From NCBI GenBank assembly GCA_937944035.1, contig CALDZQ010000153.1, positions 1 through 30,589 on the forward strand: a stretch of 30,589 bases of DNA. Reading direction: 5' to 3'. The position numbers and the translations under genes were made by a program. The stretch's first letter is position 1. Each line of letters begins with the position of its first letter. Of the stretch, positions 743 to 8,181 are shown in pieces. Below the pieces are notes generated by a model. It was not told where the DNA came from and did not search any database. It saw nothing but the letters and a program-made list of their open reading frames with translations. Source of the DNA: an uncultured Neomegalonema sp. GTDB taxonomy: Bacteria > Pseudomonadota > Alphaproteobacteria > Rhodobacterales > Rhodobacteraceae.

Positions 743-1366
743 TTGCCCGCCTTCCACGACATCCGCTTCCCCACCAACATCTCCCTCAACGCCAGCGGCG
801 GCCCCGAACGCCGCACCCGCATCGTCACCCTCACCAGCGGCTATGAGGAGCGCAACACTCCGTGGGCGCATTCCCGTCGCCGCTATGACGCGGGCTACGG
901 TGTTCGCTCCCTTGATGATCTGCACGCGGTCATCGCTTTCTTCGAGGCCCGAAGGGGCCGCCTGCACGGCTTCCGCTGGCAAGACCAGGCCGACCACCGC
1001 TCCGGCCTCCCCTCCGCGCCGATCACAGCACTGGACCAGACCATCGGCATCGGAGACGGAGCCACCACCGCATTCCCGCTCACCAAAACCTACGCCTCCG
1101 GCGGCGAAGCCTACATCCGCCCGATCACACACCCCGTCCCGGAAACACTGCTCGTCAGCATTGACGGCAGTGCCGCCCCGTTCACCTTTGCCGACGCCGC
1201 AATCACCTTCCCCGTCGTGCCCCCGCCGGGCGCAGAAATCACCGCCGGATATGCATTCGACACCCCCGTCCGCTTCGACACAGACAGCCTCGACATCAAC
1301 CTCGCAGGCTTCAACGCGGGCGATATACCCTCAATCCCGCTCATTGAAATTAGAGTATCCGATTGA
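743..1366 (+). CDS. GTA distal tail protein, DUF2460/TIGR02217 family (g12-like)
   Basis: TTG start with GAGG RBS; FHDIRFP...SGGPERRTRIVTL.SGYEERNTPWAHSRRRYDAG, FFEARRGRLHGFRWQD, TAGYAFDTPVRFDTD. Confidence 0.93.
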   Translation: MPAFHDIRFPTNISLNASGGPERRTRIVTLTSGYEERNTPWAHSRRRYDAGYGVRSLDDLHAVIAFFEARRGRLHGFRWQDQADHRSGLPSAPITALDQTIGIGDGATTAFPLTKTYASGGEAYIRPITHPVPETLLVSIDGSAAPFTFADAAITFPVVPPPGAEITAGYAFDTPVRFDTDSLDINLAGFNAGDIPSIPLIEIRVSD

Positions 1367-1405
1367 ATTTCCAGAGTTCTTCAAAGAAGAGATATTGAAG
1401 TTTTT

Positions 1406-1439
1406 CTGAAAATATGAAACTGTATTATTATATTTTCAG
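1406..1439. promoter_or_regulatory. 10-bp perfect inverted repeat CTGAAAATAT-N14-ATATTTTCAG in AT-rich leader of the inserted RTX gene
   Basis: Arms at 1406-1415 and 1430-1439; the right arm overlaps the AGGAGG RBS at 1438-1443. Confidence 0.45.
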
Positions 1440-1448
1440 GAGGTGGTC

Positions 1449-2753
1449 ATGTCTACGCATACGCTGAGTGGTTACAGGTTTGAGTTCAATGGCAACGGTG
1501 GCACATTGAGTCTCGCCGATGTTGATATTTCGATCGTTGTTCCTGAATCGGTGACGGGGTTCAATTACTCTTATGTTCTTGGCAGTAACGGTATGCCCGA
1601 TGAATTTCAGACTGCAATTATCGATACTTCCACCTTCTATGACAGAAGCATATCAGGGGATGGCGGGATTTCATTAAACCGGAACGACCTTGATCTCTTT
1701 GAGGACTACGTCTTCTTCATCGACTGGGGTGCGGGCAATCGCACATTCCTCTATTCAGGTTTCGCTGACCCTTACGACTACGCCTTCGCCATCGGCGGCG
1801 ATCCGCTGCCGGTCCTGAACACAGTCGCCGAGGCCAACGCGTTTCTTTCTTCAATCACAGGTGAGGGACCGATCACTTCCGGCCCTTACGCACCCGATCA
1901 ATTAATCCCCTTCGCCTCCCTGCTGGACGTGGTGACATCCGAGGATGATGCCTTCAACGGCAACGGCGGGGCCGATACCTACGTCACCGGCGCGGGTGAT
2001 GACATCGTCAAAGGTCTCGCGGGTGATGACAGCATCAATGGCGGCGACGGTGATGACCGTTTGCTGGGGTCGAACGGAGACGACTCCCTTGTCGGTGGTG
2101 AAGGGAATGACACCCTGCGCGGCGAGGGTGGAGCGGATACCATTATCGGTGGTAACGGTGATGACCAGATTGCGGGTGGTATCGATAATGACCGCATTAT
2201 CTCCGGCAACGGCGCGGATGCCATCCTCGGCCAGTCGGGTGCGGATACGATCATCAGCGGTAACGGAGCGGATACCCTGTCGGGGGGGTCCGGCAATGAC
2301 AGCCTTTCCGGCGGTGCCGATGATGACACGCTGTTCGGTCAAGGCAATAACGACATCCTCGTCGGTGGCGGCGGCAACGATTTGCTGCGCGGCGCGACGG
2401 GCGCTGACCTGCTTGATGGTGGCGCGGGGGATGATGTTCTGCAAGGCGGCACGGCATCGGACACGCTGATCGGGGGCAGCGGTAATGATACGCTGAACGG
2501 CGGCACACAAGCGGATATCTTCGTTTTTGCGGCGGGCTTTGACTCGGACACCCTCACCGGATTTGAAGACAATATCGACGTGCTCGTCTTCGACAATGCT
2601 CTGGTCGGCGGCGCGTTAAGCGGTGCGGAAGTCATCAGCAACTACGCCACTCAATCGGGTGGCAGCGTGATCTTTGACTTCGGTGCGGGCGACGTGCTCC
2701 GGATTACCAATATCACCACGTCTGCCCTCGAAGACGATATTTTGATCCTGTAA
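1449..2753 (+). CDS. RTX/hemolysin-type Ca-binding secreted protein, 434 aa (cargo between g12 and g13)
   Basis: ATG 1449 after AGGAGG (track uses GTG 1443); ~170-aa unique N-domain, many GGxGxDxLxG nonapeptides, T1SS-like C-terminus DIFVFAAGFDSDTLTGFEDNIDVL...DDILIL. Confidence 0.9.
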   Translation: MSTHTLSGYRFEFNGNGGTLSLADVDISIVVPESVTGFNYSYVLGSNGMPDEFQTAIIDTSTFYDRSISGDGGISLNRNDLDLFEDYVFFIDWGAGNRTFLYSGFADPYDYAFAIGGDPLPVLNTVAEANAFLSSITGEGPITSGPYAPDQLIPFASLLDVVTSEDDAFNGNGGADTYVTGAGDDIVKGLAGDDSINGGDGDDRLLGSNGDDSLVGGEGNDTLRGEGGADTIIGGNGDDQIAGGIDNDRIISGNGADAILGQSGADTIISGNGADTLSGGSGNDSLSGGADDDTLFGQGNNDILVGGGGNDLLRGATGADLLDGGAGDDVLQGGTASDTLIGGSGNDTLNGGTQADIFVFAAGFDSDTLTGFEDNIDVLVFDNALVGGALSGAEVISNYATQSGGSVIFDFGAGDVLRITNITTSALEDDILIL

Positions 2754-2768
2754 CCTCCAGAGAGGCCC

Positions 2769-6516: not shown

Positions 6517-6604
6517 TTCACCGGGAGTGCGCAGCACGACCACGCGACCGACCGCCTCACGGGCGGACGCGTTCTGCGCGAAGCGCAGCCCGCCTCCCCC
6601 CTCG
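6517..6604 (+). repeat. Multi-hairpin repeat family 3, divergent copy C
   Basis: First 30 nt (ttcaccgggagtgcgcagcacgaccacgcg) identical to 8047-8076; downstream hairpins differ in sequence but still pair. Confidence 0.75.
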
Positions 6605-6626
6605 TTCGCTCGCTTGGTTCTTTTGG

Positions 6627-7994
6627 TTATGACGCCGCAGAGCCACCCCACCCCGACCACTCCGCCTCATCCACCCAAGGCGGTTTTTCCCCCGCTGCAC
6701 GGGCGGCTTTCCAGGTGTCGTAGGCGTTGCGCCGCTCACTCCAGCCATCCAACCGCTCAGGATGCCAATGCGCCGGACGGTGGAACCCCTCCGGCAACAC
6801 CGTCCCCGCGCAGCCGAAACAGGTTTTCACCGCCTCTTGCGATAAATCTTCCGCCGCTGTAAAATCAGCGAAGCTGGCCATGACGGAGTCAATGCGCACC
6901 ATGGCCAGCTTCGCTGATTTAAGCTGCGCCTGTATGAGGTCCGCCCCTTCCAAGTGCGCCTCTCTGAGGTCCGCCCCTTCCAAGTGCGCCCCTCTGAGGA
7001 CCGCCCCTTCCAAGTGCGCCTTATAGAGGTCCGCCCCTTCCAAGTGCGCCCCTCTGAGGTCCGCCCCTTCCAAGTGCGCCGTATAGAGGTTCGCCCCTTC
7101 CAAGTGCGCCCGTGTGAGGTCCGCCCCTTCCAAGTGCGCCTCTCTGAGGTTCGCCCCTTCCAAGTGCGCCTTATAGAGGTTCGCCCCTTCCAAGTGCGCC
7201 TCCGAAAGCAGGGCATTCCTGAAATTGCCCGCACGCATGTCCGCTTTGCGCAGGTTGGCCTTGCGCAGGTCCAGCACATAGCGTGACTTGTCAGGGCTTT
7301 CTTTGATTTCATACCGGACACGCGCTTTACTCCGCCGCCCTAACACTGTCAGCACGGCCTGCACATCGCTACGGACATCGGGGAAAGCCCTAACCCATTC
7401 TCTAATCTGATCATTCTTCACATCCGTAACCGGCAGCGCCTCACACCCCGCCCCCGGCGCATTCTCCCGCACATACGCGCACAGCGTCTCCATCACCGCG
7501 ATATGGTCACGCTCTGAGTCCTGAGAAATCCGCTCCAGCGCATAAATCGCCCCCAACCGCACCTCGATATTCGGTTTGTAGGTATAGATGTCGTTGCCTT
7601 CGTCATCCTTCGAGCGGATTTCCCGCGTCGTCCCCAACTGCTCCACAGCCTTCGTGAACAGGTCCGCATAATCCCGGTCCTGCTGCCGCTTCACCTGTGC
7701 TTCCGCCGCTGCCGTTGCCCGCCGCGCGATCTCGGCTCGCCAGACAGCAAAACCACCCGCAACAAGCGCGGCCAGCACCAGACCCACATTCCTCACCGCA
7801 GCTCTATCGTTCTGCCCGTCTTTGTTTAGGGGCGGATCAGCCAGCACGTCGAAGAAATCGACCAACACCCAACCCGTCAGAACGATTAGCAACGTCACAC
7901 CCGCTACGGCCAGCACTAGCGCGCCCCACGGCAGAATCCCACCTATCAGCCGCCCAAGCCGCGCGACGTGATCTGTTTTTTCACCTTCACTCAT
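6627..7994 (-). CDS. Membrane-anchored pentapeptide-repeat protein, ~455 aa, antisense cargo before g15
   Basis: Two N-terminal TM segments; DLFTKAVEQLG...EVRLGAIYALERISQDS..DH..VMETLCAYVRE; nine AHLEGAxLxx units. Start 7994 (MSEGEK) or 8012; the 635-aa track ORF runs through repeat DNA and g15. Confidence 0.85.
   Translation of the reverse strand: MSEGEKTDHVARLGRLIGGILPWGALVLAVAGVTLLIVLTGWVLVDFFDVLADPPLNKDGQNDRAAVRNVGLVLAALVAGGFAVWRAEIARRATAAAEAQVKRQQDRDYADLFTKAVEQLGTTREIRSKDDEGNDIYTYKPNIEVRLGAIYALERISQDSERDHIAVMETLCAYVRENAPGAGCEALPVTDVKNDQIREWVRAFPDVRSDVQAVLTVLGRRSKARVRYEIKESPDKSRYVLDLRKANLRKADMRAGNFRNALLSEAHLEGANLYKAHLEGANLREAHLEGADLTRAHLEGANLYTAHLEGADLRGAHLEGADLYKAHLEGAVLRGAHLEGADLREAHLEGADLIQAQLKSAKLAMVRIDSVMASFADFTAAEDLSQEAVKTCFGCAGTVLPEGFHRPAHWHPERLDGWSERRNAYDTWKAARAAGEKPPWVDEAEWSGWGGSAAS
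6931..7200 (-). repeat. Nine tandem 30-bp coding repeats (AHLEGA[DNV]L decapeptides)
   Basis: Core cgccccttccaagtgcgcc recurs with exact 30-nt period; in-frame in the pentapeptide gene. Confidence 0.95.
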
Positions 7995-8045
7995 CCCGCG
8001 ACTTTCCCCCATCCACCCCCCGTCGTAAAGCAAAACCCCGCCCCC

Positions 8046-8141
8046 TTTCACCGGGAGTGCGCAGCACGACCACGCGCTCGCCCGCCCCACGGGCGTGTGC
8101 GTCCCGCCAAAGGCGGTCCACCCCCTCCCCGGTCGACCGCT
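8046..8141 (+). repeat. Multi-hairpin repeat family 3, copy D (between pentapeptide gene start and g15 start)
   Basis: Matches copy B along its length and copy C at the 5' end. Confidence 0.85.
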
Positions 8142-8181
8142 TTTTTCTTCCCCCTCCCCCCAACACGGACTCCCCGCACCC

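What the first reader, a model, noticed from the sequence alone, without database searches (positions are those of the whole stretch)
743..8181. GTA tail operon interleaved with four unrelated envelope-protein genes at gene boundaries
Seen: g12|RTX|g13|antisense membrane protein|g14|exported phosphatase|antisense pentapeptide protein|g15. Every GTA gene keeps its key motifs and appears intact. Established: g11-g15 are contiguous in the RcGTA cluster. All four cargo products are secreted or membrane-bound. The two sense cargoes have no clear terminator separating them from the preceding GTA gene, and the RTX stop is only 15 nt from the g13 start. Inference: either the operon is a tolerated insertion hotspot, or the cargo is co-regulated with GTA production, for example to change the surface of the producer subpopulation.
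Basis: partly seen in the sequence, partly recalled or inferred. Interest (0 to 1): 0.78.

Follow-up and report, generated by a model that had tools for sequence, protein, structure and literature searches.

The report
Gene-transfer-agent tail genes interleaved with cargo
The tail genes of a virus-like "gene transfer agent" in an uncultured marine bacterium are intact but separated by four unrelated host-type genes. These genes arrived at different times and are swapped between close strains, so the gene boundaries act as a tolerated landing site, and nothing here shows a purpose-built co-regulated module.

Summary
The window encodes g12 | RTX | g13 | antisense membrane protein | g14 | exported histidine-phosphatase | antisense pentapeptide protein | g15. 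All GTA genes are full length. The RTX stop lies 15 nt before g13, and the phosphatase start lies 16 nt after the g14 stop.

It is not an assembly chimera: contigs from two separate studies bridge the junctions.

In about 70 of 80 other alphaproteobacterial GTA loci, g12-g15 are contiguous. About 10 loci carry one unrelated insert at one of the same three junctions (VapBC, Fic, OMP, PLP enzyme, TonB/TPR, HTH). None has all three junctions filled.

The cargo differs in age:
- The membrane gene sits at the g13 3' end even in a lineage whose g13 is only 61% identical.
- The pentapeptide gene is shared by at least six lineages of the genus clade.
- RTX is shared with one sister species.
- The phosphatase is seen only in this lineage.
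- One strain carries 1.2 kb of extra sequence.

In 98%-identical sister strains the g12|g13 slot holds different RTX genes in opposite orientations, with remnants of earlier cassettes. Cargo and GTA genes are both under purifying selection (dN/dS 0.08-0.31).

Best reading: moron-like cargo accretes and turns over at permissive gene boundaries. Co-regulation with GTA production is untested and mostly disfavoured.

Earlier AI notes of this scan, which I did not check, report expanded GTA clusters on other DNA.

The parts
2..670 (+). 3' part of g11 (tape-measure-like GTA gene), cut by the contig start
   Evidence: tblastn matches to g11 of relatives at 58-69%; no Pfam family
743..1366 (+). g12 (DUF2460, distal tail protein type)
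   Evidence: PF09343, E 2.5e-79, profile positions 1-205 of 205; 66-76% identical to genus orthologues
1367..1448 (.). AT-rich spacer (29% GC) upstream of the RTX gene. It holds promoter-like hexamers and AGGAGG before the ATG at 1449.
   Evidence: A weak A/U-rich hairpin is present but no GC-rich terminator.
1449..2753 (+). Cargo 1: 434-aa RTX calcium-binding repeat protein with a lineage-specific N-terminal ~170 aa. Type I secretion substrate type.
   Evidence: PF00353, 8 stretches, E 6.9e-40. GC3 0.64. N-domain not found in 15 genus genomes. A 77% orthologue sits at the same place in sister contig L169. dN/dS 0.08.
2769..3620 (+). g13 (baseplate hub, Gp84_N plus BR0599)
   Evidence: full-length alignment to 11 orthologues; dN/dS 0.13 against L169
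3617..4984 (-). Cargo 2: 455-aa polytopic membrane protein with a C-terminal helix-hairpin-helix-like domain. It is convergent with g13 and the stop codons overlap.
   Evidence: No Pfam family. Hydrophobic segments. Only 5 family members among 5.8 billion proteins. The 82% and 49% homologues sit at the same position next to g13. dN/dS 0.15. HhH / RadA N-domain / DUF4332-like local fold matches on a low-confidence model.
4985..5161 (.). Divergent spacer (46% GC) between the membrane gene and g14. It holds the palindromic CtrA-type box GTTAACCATATTTTAAC (5129-5145) and GAATC at 5107.
   Evidence: The box occurs once in the window against 0.03 expected. The sister species keeps only TTAACCAT and GAATC.
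5162..5701 (+). g14 (NlpC/P60 phage cell-wall peptidase) with a ~38-aa C-terminal extension through a REP-like repeat. An alternative in-frame ATG lies at 5123.
   Evidence: TIGR02219, 5.5e-45, over aa 4-140; extension GC3 0.55; alternative start
5584..5650 (+). REP-like hairpin repeat, copy A, inside the g14 extension. In strain X3 this stretch is replaced by 1231 other bases.
5718..6284 (+). Cargo 3: 188-aa exported histidine-phosphatase-superfamily protein (signal-peptide-like N-terminus, RH motif)
   Evidence: PF00300, E 5.7e-5; PRK06193-type, 2.5e-20. Best genus paralogue is 49% identical, on another contig than that genome's two GTA contigs; its surroundings were not examined. No match at the sister species' junction.
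6293..6604 (+). REP-like hairpin repeats, copies B (6293-6386) and C (6517-6604), between the phosphatase and pentapeptide genes
   Evidence: the family also occurs at about 20 other places in the genome, several at contig ends. A depth peak at this stretch.
6627..7994 (-). Cargo 4: 455-aa membrane-anchored pentapeptide-repeat protein, divergent from g15
   Evidence: PF00805, E 2.3e-36; two hydrophobic segments. The same penta|g15 arrangement occurs in G007, G004, G011, L175 and L178. dN/dS 0.31 with repeat-number change.
8046..8141 (+). REP-like hairpin repeat, copy D, in the pentapeptide-g15 spacer
8182..11973 (+). g15 (GTA_TIM, Phage-tail_3, Rcc01698_C; 'megatron' type)
   Evidence: 93% aa identity to G007 by global alignment (tblastn 91%); dN/dS 0.15

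Best explanation
This is the tail half (g11-g15) of an RcGTA-type gene-transfer-agent cluster in an uncultured marine alphaproteobacterium. Its gene boundaries have accumulated unrelated, host-type genes, comparable to the 'morons' of prophages.

Shown:
- The GTA genes are intact, collinear and under purifying selection.
- The four cargo genes are real genes, also under purifying selection, with host-like codon composition.
- They entered at different times. The membrane gene and the pentapeptide gene are the older, more widely shared inserts and their relative order is unresolved. RTX is shared only with the sister species. The phosphatase is seen only in this lineage. A 1.2-kb piece is present in one strain only.
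- The g12|g13 slot is exchanged between near-identical strains and carries remnants of previous cassettes.

Inferred:
- Insertions persist only at gene boundaries because insertions inside GTA genes are removed by selection.
- Each cargo gene is mainly its own expression unit. RTX has an AT-rich promoter-like leader and a strong ribosome-binding site, and the two antisense genes must have their own promoters.
- g14 and g15 are reached either by read-through across the antisense genes or from internal promoters in the 177-nt and 187-nt spacers. The first spacer carries a CtrA-type box.
- New cassettes probably enter by recombination anchored in the conserved GTA genes on one side and an illegitimate join on the other. 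The decayed copy of the g12 3' end upstream of RTX-A in the sister strain suggests this.
- REP-like repeats flank the two youngest junctions and may help.
For: - Annotation.
- Independent assemblies bridge the junctions.
- In about 70 of 80 other GTA loci, g12-g15 are contiguous. About 10 carry one unrelated insert at g12|g13, g13|g14 or g14|g15 (VapBC, Fic twice, OMP beta-barrel, PLP enzyme, TonB_C/TPR, HTH_37, repeats, orphans).
- Genus distribution:
  - Membrane gene 0 of 15 genomes and RTX N-domain 0 of 15.
  - Pentapeptide gene at g14|g15 in G007, G004 and G011 but not in G002, G013, G014, G015, G006 or G008.
  - The sister contig L169 has RTX|g13|membrane gene|g14.
  - L170 has g13|membrane gene without RTX.
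  - L175, 98% identical to L169, has an antisense 592-aa RTX-B plus a ~55-nt remnant of RTX-A. L169 has a decayed g12 3' copy upstream of RTX-A.
- dN/dS: RTX 0.08, g13 0.13, membrane gene 0.15, g14 0.19, pentapeptide gene 0.31, g15 0.15.
- GC3: cargo 0.64-0.76, genome median 0.71, GTA genes 0.76-0.86.
- The whole genus has interleaved clusters. G013 has g2|1.9 kb|g3|4.1 kb|g4|4.2 kb|g5, filled with PNPOx, SDR, DUF533, DUF2161, PhnA, DUF2177, GT2, HAD and BenE.
- The genome holds RTX genes on at least 20 contigs, so an RTX gene as cargo has a high base rate.
Against: - No expression data, so independence from GTA induction is inferred and not shown.
- The two sense cargo genes sit 15-16 nt from GTA genes with no convincing terminator. 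They may well be co-transcribed.
- The membrane gene's fixed position at the g13 3' end across 61%-identical g13 lineages, together with a CtrA-type box or half-site upstream in two species, would also fit a GTA-linked role.
- Three different RTX genes at one junction could mean a functional link and not only recombination between paralogues.
- The GTA portal gene g3 was not found in this 91%-complete MAG, and the cluster lies on at least 5 contigs. GTA function in this organism is therefore unproven.
- The recombination mechanism rests on two sequence footprints in one sister species.
Confidence: 0.7

Rival explanations
1. Functional accessory module. Some or all cargo genes are co-regulated with GTA production, by read-through for RTX and the phosphatase and by CtrA for the membrane gene. 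They would act in the producer subpopulation, for example to remodel the envelope, to aid release, or, for the HhH-bearing membrane protein, to handle DNA at the membrane.
For: - 15-16 nt spacing and no clear terminator for the two sense genes.
- A perfect CtrA-type box in the membrane-gene/g14 spacer, 0.03 expected; the TTAACCAT half-site is kept in the sister species.
- Membrane-gene homologues at 82% and 49% identity sit at the same place next to g13, and the family has only 5 members in 5.8 billion proteins.
- All four products look exported or membrane-bound.
- Cargo is under purifying selection.
Against: - Most genus members and about 70 of 80 other GTA loci lack any such genes yet keep intact clusters.
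- RTX cargo flips orientation between 98%-identical strains.
- Cargo in relatives includes cytoplasmic enzymes and toxin-antitoxin pairs.
- The full CtrA box is not conserved in the sister species and may lie inside an extended g14 ORF.
- More distant membrane-gene homologues (35%) lie on short contigs that show no GTA gene.
Confidence: 0.17
2. Mutually exclusive expression by convergent transcription. The antisense membrane gene overlaps the g13 stop, and the antisense pentapeptide gene lies between g14/phosphatase and g15. They would act as transcriptional roadblocks, so GTA read-through silences them in producer cells, and their own transcription damps leaky g14-g15 expression in non-producers.
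For: - Overlapping convergent stop codons with no room for terminators in the window (3 nt), L169 (4 nt) and L170 (25 nt).
- Antisense cargo at g13|g14 recurs in other lineages: VapBC and Fic.
Against: - Purely structural inference with no RNA data.
- Overlap of convergent ends is what one expects of any surviving tight insertion.
- Many relatives have no antisense gene.
Confidence: 0.08
3. Decaying GTA remnant. The cluster is being broken up by insertions on its way to loss, and the GTA genes are no longer functional.
For: - The cluster is spread over at least 5 contigs.
- The GTA portal gene g3 was not found; only the N-terminal part of g4 was seen.
- g14 carries a repeat-derived C-terminal extension.
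Against: - All of g12-g15 are full length without stops.
- dN/dS is 0.13-0.19 against the sister species and G007.
- GTA-typical high GC3 is maintained.
- The MAG is only 91% complete and fragmented at repeats, so missing genes are not evidence of absence.
Confidence: 0.04
4. Assembly or binning chimera that joins GTA genes with unrelated DNA.
For: The source is a fragmented metagenome-assembled genome, and the RTX region has lower GC.
Against: - Unitig-level contigs from three runs in two studies bridge every tested junction.
- The same RTX|g13|membrane gene|g14 order is present on an ENA contig of a sister species.
- Reading frames and ribosome-binding sites fit exactly.
Confidence: 0.01

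Closest known systems
RcGTA head-tail cluster of Rhodobacter capsulatus (g1-g15) and its alphaproteobacterial homologues
   Same: Same gene families in the same order and on the same strand: g11, g12 (DUF2460), g13 (Gp84_N plus BR0599), g14 (NlpC/P60, TIGR02219) and g15 (GTA_TIM etc.). A DUF2793 fibre-like gene follows g15. GC3 is high relative to the host, as published for GTAs (PMC7360931).
   Different: g12-g15 are not contiguous. 5.4 kb of unrelated DNA in three blocks, two of the four genes antisense, separates them. In this genus the head genes are also separated by kilobases of ordinary genes. Whether particles are made is unknown.
Phage 'morons': extra genes inserted between conserved genes of prophage late operons, for example lambda bor/lom and HK97-family morons (named from general knowledge, not from a paper read here)
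   Same: - Cargo sits exactly between genes that are adjacent in relatives.
- Its composition differs from the flanks.
- Products are often membrane or secreted proteins.
- It is variable between close relatives and is maintained by selection for the host's benefit.
   Different: - The carrier is a domesticated, non-replicating GTA and not a mobile prophage, so cargo cannot ride with the element.
- Canonical moron promoter-terminator pairs are not evident.
- Two cargo genes are antisense, with stop codons overlapping a GTA gene.
Interrupted or expanded GTA clusters noted in the literature and in this scan
   Same: GTA-Hunter had to allow 5-8 kb between adjacent GTA genes (PMC6821227). A phage comparison notes 'uncertain insertions' in g11-15 of related phages (PMC11409702). 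Earlier notes of this scan describe clusters inflated by inserts at many junctions in other genomes.
   Different: I found no paper that analyses the inserted genes, their ages or their turnover. Here the strain-level exchange, the cassette remnants and a cargo family tied to one junction are documented.
Homology-facilitated illegitimate recombination in natural transformation (general knowledge)
   Same: A decayed duplicate of the g12 3' end lies upstream of RTX-A, and a ~55-nt RTX-A remnant lies upstream of g13 in the sister strains. These are the footprints expected when incoming DNA is anchored by homology on one side only.
   Different: The mechanism was not observed, only inferred from two footprints. 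Other routes, such as recombination between RTX repeats or REP-associated events, are not excluded.

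Membership tests
RcGTA-type head-tail cluster (tail module) | Homologues of g12, g13, g14 and g15 with their family domains | tested here: met
   PF09343; PF09931 plus PF09356; TIGR02219 / PF00877; PF13547 plus PF13550 plus PF23666
RcGTA-type head-tail cluster (tail module) | Collinear order on one strand | tested here: met
   g11 to g15 all lie on the + strand in canonical order
RcGTA-type head-tail cluster (tail module) | Genes adjacent, compact operon | tested here: not met
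   Gaps of 1402, 1541 and 2480 nt are filled with four unrelated genes. About 70 of 80 other loci are compact.
RcGTA-type head-tail cluster (tail module) | Complete head gene set (terminase, portal, protease, capsid) in the genome | tested here: inconclusive
   g2, the g4 N-terminus and g5-g10 were found on other contigs. The GTA-type portal was not found. The MAG is 91% complete.
RcGTA-type head-tail cluster (tail module) | Production of particles that package host DNA | not testable with these tools
   The organism is uncultured.
Phage moron | Inserted between genes that are adjacent in relatives | tested here: met
Phage moron | Own promoter and terminator | tested here: inconclusive
   Promoter-like hexamers and an AT-rich leader occur before RTX. 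Antisense genes need their own promoters. No convincing terminators were found.
Phage moron | Composition unlike the flanking element | tested here: met
   Cargo GC3 is 0.64-0.76 against 0.76-0.86 for the GTA genes.
Phage moron | Expression independent of the late operon | not testable with these tools
   No RNA run holding the stretch was listed by a kind-'any' search, which is not an RNA search. No kind-'rna' search was run, and the single read-laying run was used on DNA contigs.
RTX (type I secretion substrate) proteins | Tandem GGxGxD nonapeptide repeats | tested here: met
   PF00353, 8 stretches, E 6.9e-40
RTX (type I secretion substrate) proteins | C-terminal secretion signal and a cognate ABC/MFP/OMP exporter | not tested
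   The C-terminus is acidic-hydrophobic. No exporter search was done.
Pentapeptide repeat proteins | Tandem A(D/N)LXX repeats forming a beta-helix | tested here: met
   PF00805, E 2.3e-36; repeats visible in the translation
Histidine phosphatase superfamily, branch 1 | Profile match above the cut-off, and an RH catalytic motif near the N-terminus | tested here: met
   PF00300 at 23.3 bits against a 21.7 cut-off. 'IIRHTRA' at aa 38-44. NCBIfam PRK06193-type matches fall below their cut-offs, so only superfamily membership is claimed.
Integron cassette array | intI integrase and attC sites flanking co-oriented cassettes | not tested
   No integrase domain was seen among the ORFs scanned and cassettes are in mixed orientation, but no attC model was run.

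The most novel reading that the evidence does not exclude
The conserved GTA genes serve as homology arms of a gene-capture platform. Cargo blocks of 1.4-2.5 kb, small enough to fit with their flanks into a GTA-sized DNA fragment, would be exchanged between related strains by GTA- or transformation-mediated recombination anchored in g12-g15. That would make the GTA cluster a shared, fast-turning accessory locus. In addition, the membrane/HhH protein family would be a previously unrecognised GTA-linked gene fixed to the g13 3' end.
Probability: 0.15. Interest if true: 0.7.

Novelty: new variant of a known kind. Interest (0 to 1): 0.48.

Why it matters
GTA clusters are usually described as compact, vertically inherited operons driven from one promoter. 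This lineage shows that the cluster can be pulled apart at gene boundaries, with antisense genes inside it, while every particle gene stays under purifying selection.

That raises a concrete, testable question about how g14 and g15 are expressed: by internal promoters, or by read-through across antisense genes.

It also shows that a domesticated virus-derived locus can keep acting as a landing pad for accessory genes with strain-level turnover.

On the practical side, GTA detectors that rely on gene spacing, and metagenome assemblers, will fragment or miss such clusters. Half of the genus MAGs break exactly at these junctions.

Tried and rejected
- **Assembly chimera:** rejected, because independent contigs from two studies bridge the junctions.
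- **Decaying cluster:** rejected as the main reading on dN/dS and intact ORFs.
- **Recently imported foreign DNA as the source of all cargo:** rejected. GC3 of three of the four genes is host-typical and RTX is only mildly low.
- **REP-like repeats as the general insertion vehicle:** only the phosphatase and pentapeptide junctions are flanked by them. The family is dispersed genome-wide, and Rfam has no match.
- **A conserved CtrA box as proof of co-regulation:** the full box is not conserved in the sister species and may lie within an extended g14 ORF.
- **Function of the membrane protein:**
  - Pfam, NCBIfam and PHROGs gave nothing.
  - The AlphaFold model is poor (pLDDT 60).
  - Foldseek gave only uncharacterised membrane proteins and a local HhH / RadA N-domain / DUF4332 likeness.
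  - The Atlas gave unnamed clusters.
- **GTA-gene remnants inside the window's own cargo blocks:** none found.
- **Literature:** five of the ten allowed paper searches and seven papers checked gave no description of cargo or morons inside GTA clusters.
- **Organism name:** not recovered.
- **One apparent 2.6-kb 'insert' at g12|g13 in locus L082:** set aside, because it contains GTA genes g8-g10 and is therefore a rearrangement, not cargo.

Full report
**Observation**

The window is a whole 30.6-kb contig of a 2.97-Mb, 91%-complete metagenome-assembled genome.

- g11 (3' part, 2-670)
- g12 (743-1366, DUF2460)
- a 434-aa RTX repeat protein (1449-2753)
- g13 (2769-3620, Gp84_N plus BR0599)
- a 455-aa antisense ORF (3617-4984)
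- g14 (5162-5701, TIGR02219 / NlpC-P60)
- a 188-aa histidine-phosphatase-superfamily protein with a signal-like N-terminus (5718-6284)
- a 455-aa antisense pentapeptide-repeat protein with two hydrophobic N-terminal segments (6627-7994)
- g15 (8182-11973, GTA_TIM / Phage-tail_3 / Rcc01698_C)

Reading the junctions gives these spacings:
- 15 nt from the RTX stop to the g13 start.
- 16 nt, with AGGAGG, from the g14 stop to the phosphatase start.
- A 3-nt overlap of the convergent g13 and membrane-gene stop codons.
- An 82-nt, 29%-GC leader before RTX.
- A 177-nt, 46%-GC divergent spacer before g14.

The last ~38 residues of g14 run through a REP-like repeat and have non-coding-like GC3 of 0.55. 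The longest pentapeptide ORF extends as an antisense shadow into g15, and the real start is the ATG at 7994.

Simple hydropathy supports 'membrane or exported' for three products. RTX fits a type I secretion substrate.

**Is it real?**

Logan contigs of four public runs were laid on window 1-12500.
- The high-depth run X1 has unitigs that bridge g12|RTX (1188-2083), RTX|g13|membrane gene (2115-3676) and membrane gene|g14 (3708-5700).
- Run X3 comes from a different study (a macroalgal metagenome, about 97.5% identical). It has a 6.4-kb contig covering 1-3277 and a 4.3-kb contig covering 3287-6329.
- In that second X3 contig, 68 nt of the window (5580-5649, REP copy A) are replaced by 1231 other bases.

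The arrangement is therefore not a chimera, and the junction after g14 is polymorphic between strains.

**How unusual is it?**

tblastn mapping of the window's proteins on 16 relatives' loci and on 80 GTA loci from across the Alphaproteobacteria shows g12-g13-g14-g15 contiguous in about 70 of 80.

About ten loci have one insert of 0.65-2.6 kb at exactly one of the same three junctions. Their content is unrelated from case to case:
- a VapBC pair (antisense, g13|g14)
- Fic in two genomes (antisense, g13|g14)
- an OMP beta-barrel (g13|g14)
- a PLP enzyme (g14|g15)
- two exported TonB_C/TPR proteins (g14|g15)
- an HTH_37 antitoxin-like gene (g14|g15)
- repeats
- orphan ORFs

No locus had all three junctions filled.

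The literature I could search treats the cluster as compact, but it implicitly allows 5-8 kb between genes (PMC6821227). It also notes unspecified insertions in phage counterparts (PMC11409702). I found no analysis of such cargo. Earlier notes of this scan report inflated GTA clusters in other genomes. I did not check them.

**Distribution and age of each cargo gene**

- **Membrane gene.** It was not found in 15 other genus genomes or in 150 genera of the family. It has only four relatives among 5.8 billion proteins.
  - The 82% homologue lies on ENA contig L169 in the order RTX (77%) | g13 (84%) | membrane gene | g14.
  - The 49% homologue lies on Logan contigs L170 and L171, convergent with and overlapping g13 (61% identical), with no RTX between g12 and g13.
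  - Two 35% homologues are on short contigs that show no GTA genes.
- **Pentapeptide gene.** It is divergent from g15 in G007 (g15 91% identical by tblastn), G004, G011, L175 and L178. It is absent from G002, G013, G014, G015, G006 and G008, where g14 and g15 abut. G002 instead has a 48%-GC orphan ORF there.
- **RTX N-domain.** It occurs in none of the 15 genus genomes.
- **Phosphatase.** Its paralogues are at most 49% identical. The best one lies on a contig other than that genome's two GTA contigs, and I did not examine the surroundings of any paralogue. The sister species has about 1 kb of repeats in the phosphatase's place.

A g13 tree puts the window with L169. It leaves four genus lineages unresolved, so the membrane-gene and pentapeptide-gene distributions are not nested. 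Gains with losses, or lateral exchange, are needed to explain them.

**Turnover at g12|g13**

L175 and L169 are 98% identical over g13, the membrane gene and g14, yet they differ upstream of g13.
- L175 has g12, then a 592-aa RTX gene on the opposite strand (PF00353, E 5e-83; 36-51% identical to the window's RTX). An 80-nt shared segment follows. Directly before g13 lie about 55 nt identical to the 3' end of L169's RTX-A.
- L169 has the C-terminus of yet another RTX-like ORF, then the same 80-nt segment, then a decayed copy of the last ~100 nt of g12 (about 70% identical), then RTX-A.

These are footprints of successive cassette replacement. They are the kind expected from recombination anchored by homology on one side.

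RTX genes are very common in this genome. They occur on at least 20 contigs, and a 2494-aa giant lies 8 kb downstream in the window. An RTX gene as cargo therefore has a high prior, and recombination between RTX paralogues is plausible.

**Selection and composition**

Nei-Gojobori estimates against L169 give dN/dS of 0.08 for RTX (dS saturated), 0.13 for g13, 0.15 for the membrane gene and 0.19 for g14. Against G007 they give 0.31 for the pentapeptide gene, with repeat-number change, and 0.15 for g15.

Cargo GC3 (0.64-0.76) matches the genome's long-ORF distribution (median 0.71). The GTA genes lie in the upper tail at 0.76-0.86, consistent with the published GC bias of GTAs (PMC7360931).

The cluster is therefore not decaying, and the cargo genes are functional host-type genes.

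**Wider context in the genus**

In the window's own genome the GTA genes lie on at least five contigs:
- g2 is at the end of C81.
- The g4 N-terminus is at the end of C246.
- g5 and g6 are on C220, behind DUF2177 and a glycosyltransferase.
- g7-g10 are on C130, between an antisense ABC-membrane gene and a TPR protein.
- g11-g15 are on the window's contig.
- A GTA-type portal was not found.

In G013 the head genes are spaced g2|1.9 kb|g3|4.1 kb|g4|4.2 kb|g5, with PNPOx, SDR, DUF533, DUF2161, PhnA, DUF2177, GT2, HAD and BenE between them. G006 is similar.

Interleaving is thus a trait of the genus, and its cargo includes cytoplasmic enzymes. This weakens the idea that the cargo is selected for envelope functions.

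**Expression signals**

The consensus scan finds promoter-like hexamers in the RTX leader. It finds no convincing terminator after g12, RTX or g14. Co-transcription of the two sense cargo genes is therefore possible.

The palindromic box GTTAACCATATTTTAAC (5129-5145) is the only TTAA-N7-TTAAC in the window, against 0.03 expected. The sister species keeps only TTAACCAT and the nearby GAATC. An in-frame ATG at 5123 would place the box inside g14.

The convergent overlap of g13 and the membrane gene is kept in three lineages. It leaves no room for terminators, so transcription from the two sides must collide. Whether that matters is unknown.

**The membrane protein**

The five-member alignment shows a conserved polytopic core and a C-terminal motif LPGMSYSHxERLRxEGIDxVENLA.

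The AlphaFold model is weak (pLDDT 60). The best AFDB-cluster matches are uncharacterised membrane proteins, and DUF4332 or HhH proteins appear only weakly. In the PDB, only 60-residue local matches to the RadA/Rad51 N-terminal HhH domain appear.

Its function is not assigned. A membrane protein with an HhH-type module is all that can be said.

**Verdict**

The 'co-regulated surface remodelling' half is untested and mostly disfavoured, with the position-fixed membrane gene as the open exception.

I class it as a new variant of a known kind: moron-like accretion, here in a domesticated GTA cluster. Interest is moderate.

Noticed in passing
window 5580-5649: In the macroalgal-metagenome strain (run X3), a contig replaces these 68 bases (REP copy A, between the g14 core and the phosphatase gene) with 1231 other bases. 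This is a further strain-specific insert whose sequence I could not see.
   Followed up: partly
window 5584-5650, 6293-6386, 6517-6604, 8046-8141, and about 12000-12100: A modular GC-rich hairpin (REP-like) repeat family. It also occurs at about 20 other places in the genome, several at contig ends, and gives 2-4x depth peaks in the read-laying. It has no Rfam match.
   Followed up: partly
window 5123-5161: An in-frame ATG at 5123 would add 13 residues (MTVNHILTISQRR) to g14. The sister species encodes MAVNHIFMISQRR at the same place. The CtrA-type box would then lie inside the ORF.
   Followed up: partly
window 20168-27652: A 2494-aa RTX giant (57 HemolysinCabind stretches plus a PPC domain) lies 8 kb downstream of g15. 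The genome has RTX-repeat genes on at least 20 contigs.
   Followed up: partly
G000 contigs C81, C246, C220, C130 (loci L161-L163): The rest of the GTA cluster is scattered over at least four other contigs, with non-GTA genes next to GTA genes (DUF2177, GT2, ABC_membrane, TPR). A GTA-type portal gene was not found in the MAG.
   Followed up: partly
L164 (G013:C4:80000-99999) and L166 (G006:C34): In other species of the genus, the head genes g2, g3, g4 and g5 are separated by 1.7-4.2 kb of ordinary genes (PNPOx, SDR, DUF533, DUF2161, PhnA, DUF2177, GT2, HAD, BenE). A small conserved ORF of about 130 aa sits between g8 and g9 throughout the genus.
   Followed up: partly
L169 4770-5356 and L175 1233-3513: Two 98%-identical sister-species contigs carry different RTX genes at g12|g13, in opposite orientations. 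One has a decayed duplicate of the g12 3' end and the other a ~55-nt remnant of RTX-A.
   Followed up: yes
L021 8527-9422 (G002:C218): A 185-aa orphan ORF of 48% GC in a 71%-GC locus sits between g14 and g15, and a 235-nt, 41%-GC spacer sits between g12 and g13. This is another independent filling of the same junctions.
   Followed up: partly
L026, L027, L028, L029 (G008, G011, G005, G004): Four of the ten genus MAGs with a g13 match of near-full length have contig ends right after g13 or inside or after g14. In two of them the break lies in the pentapeptide repeats. Such clusters are systematically fragmented by assemblers.
   Followed up: partly
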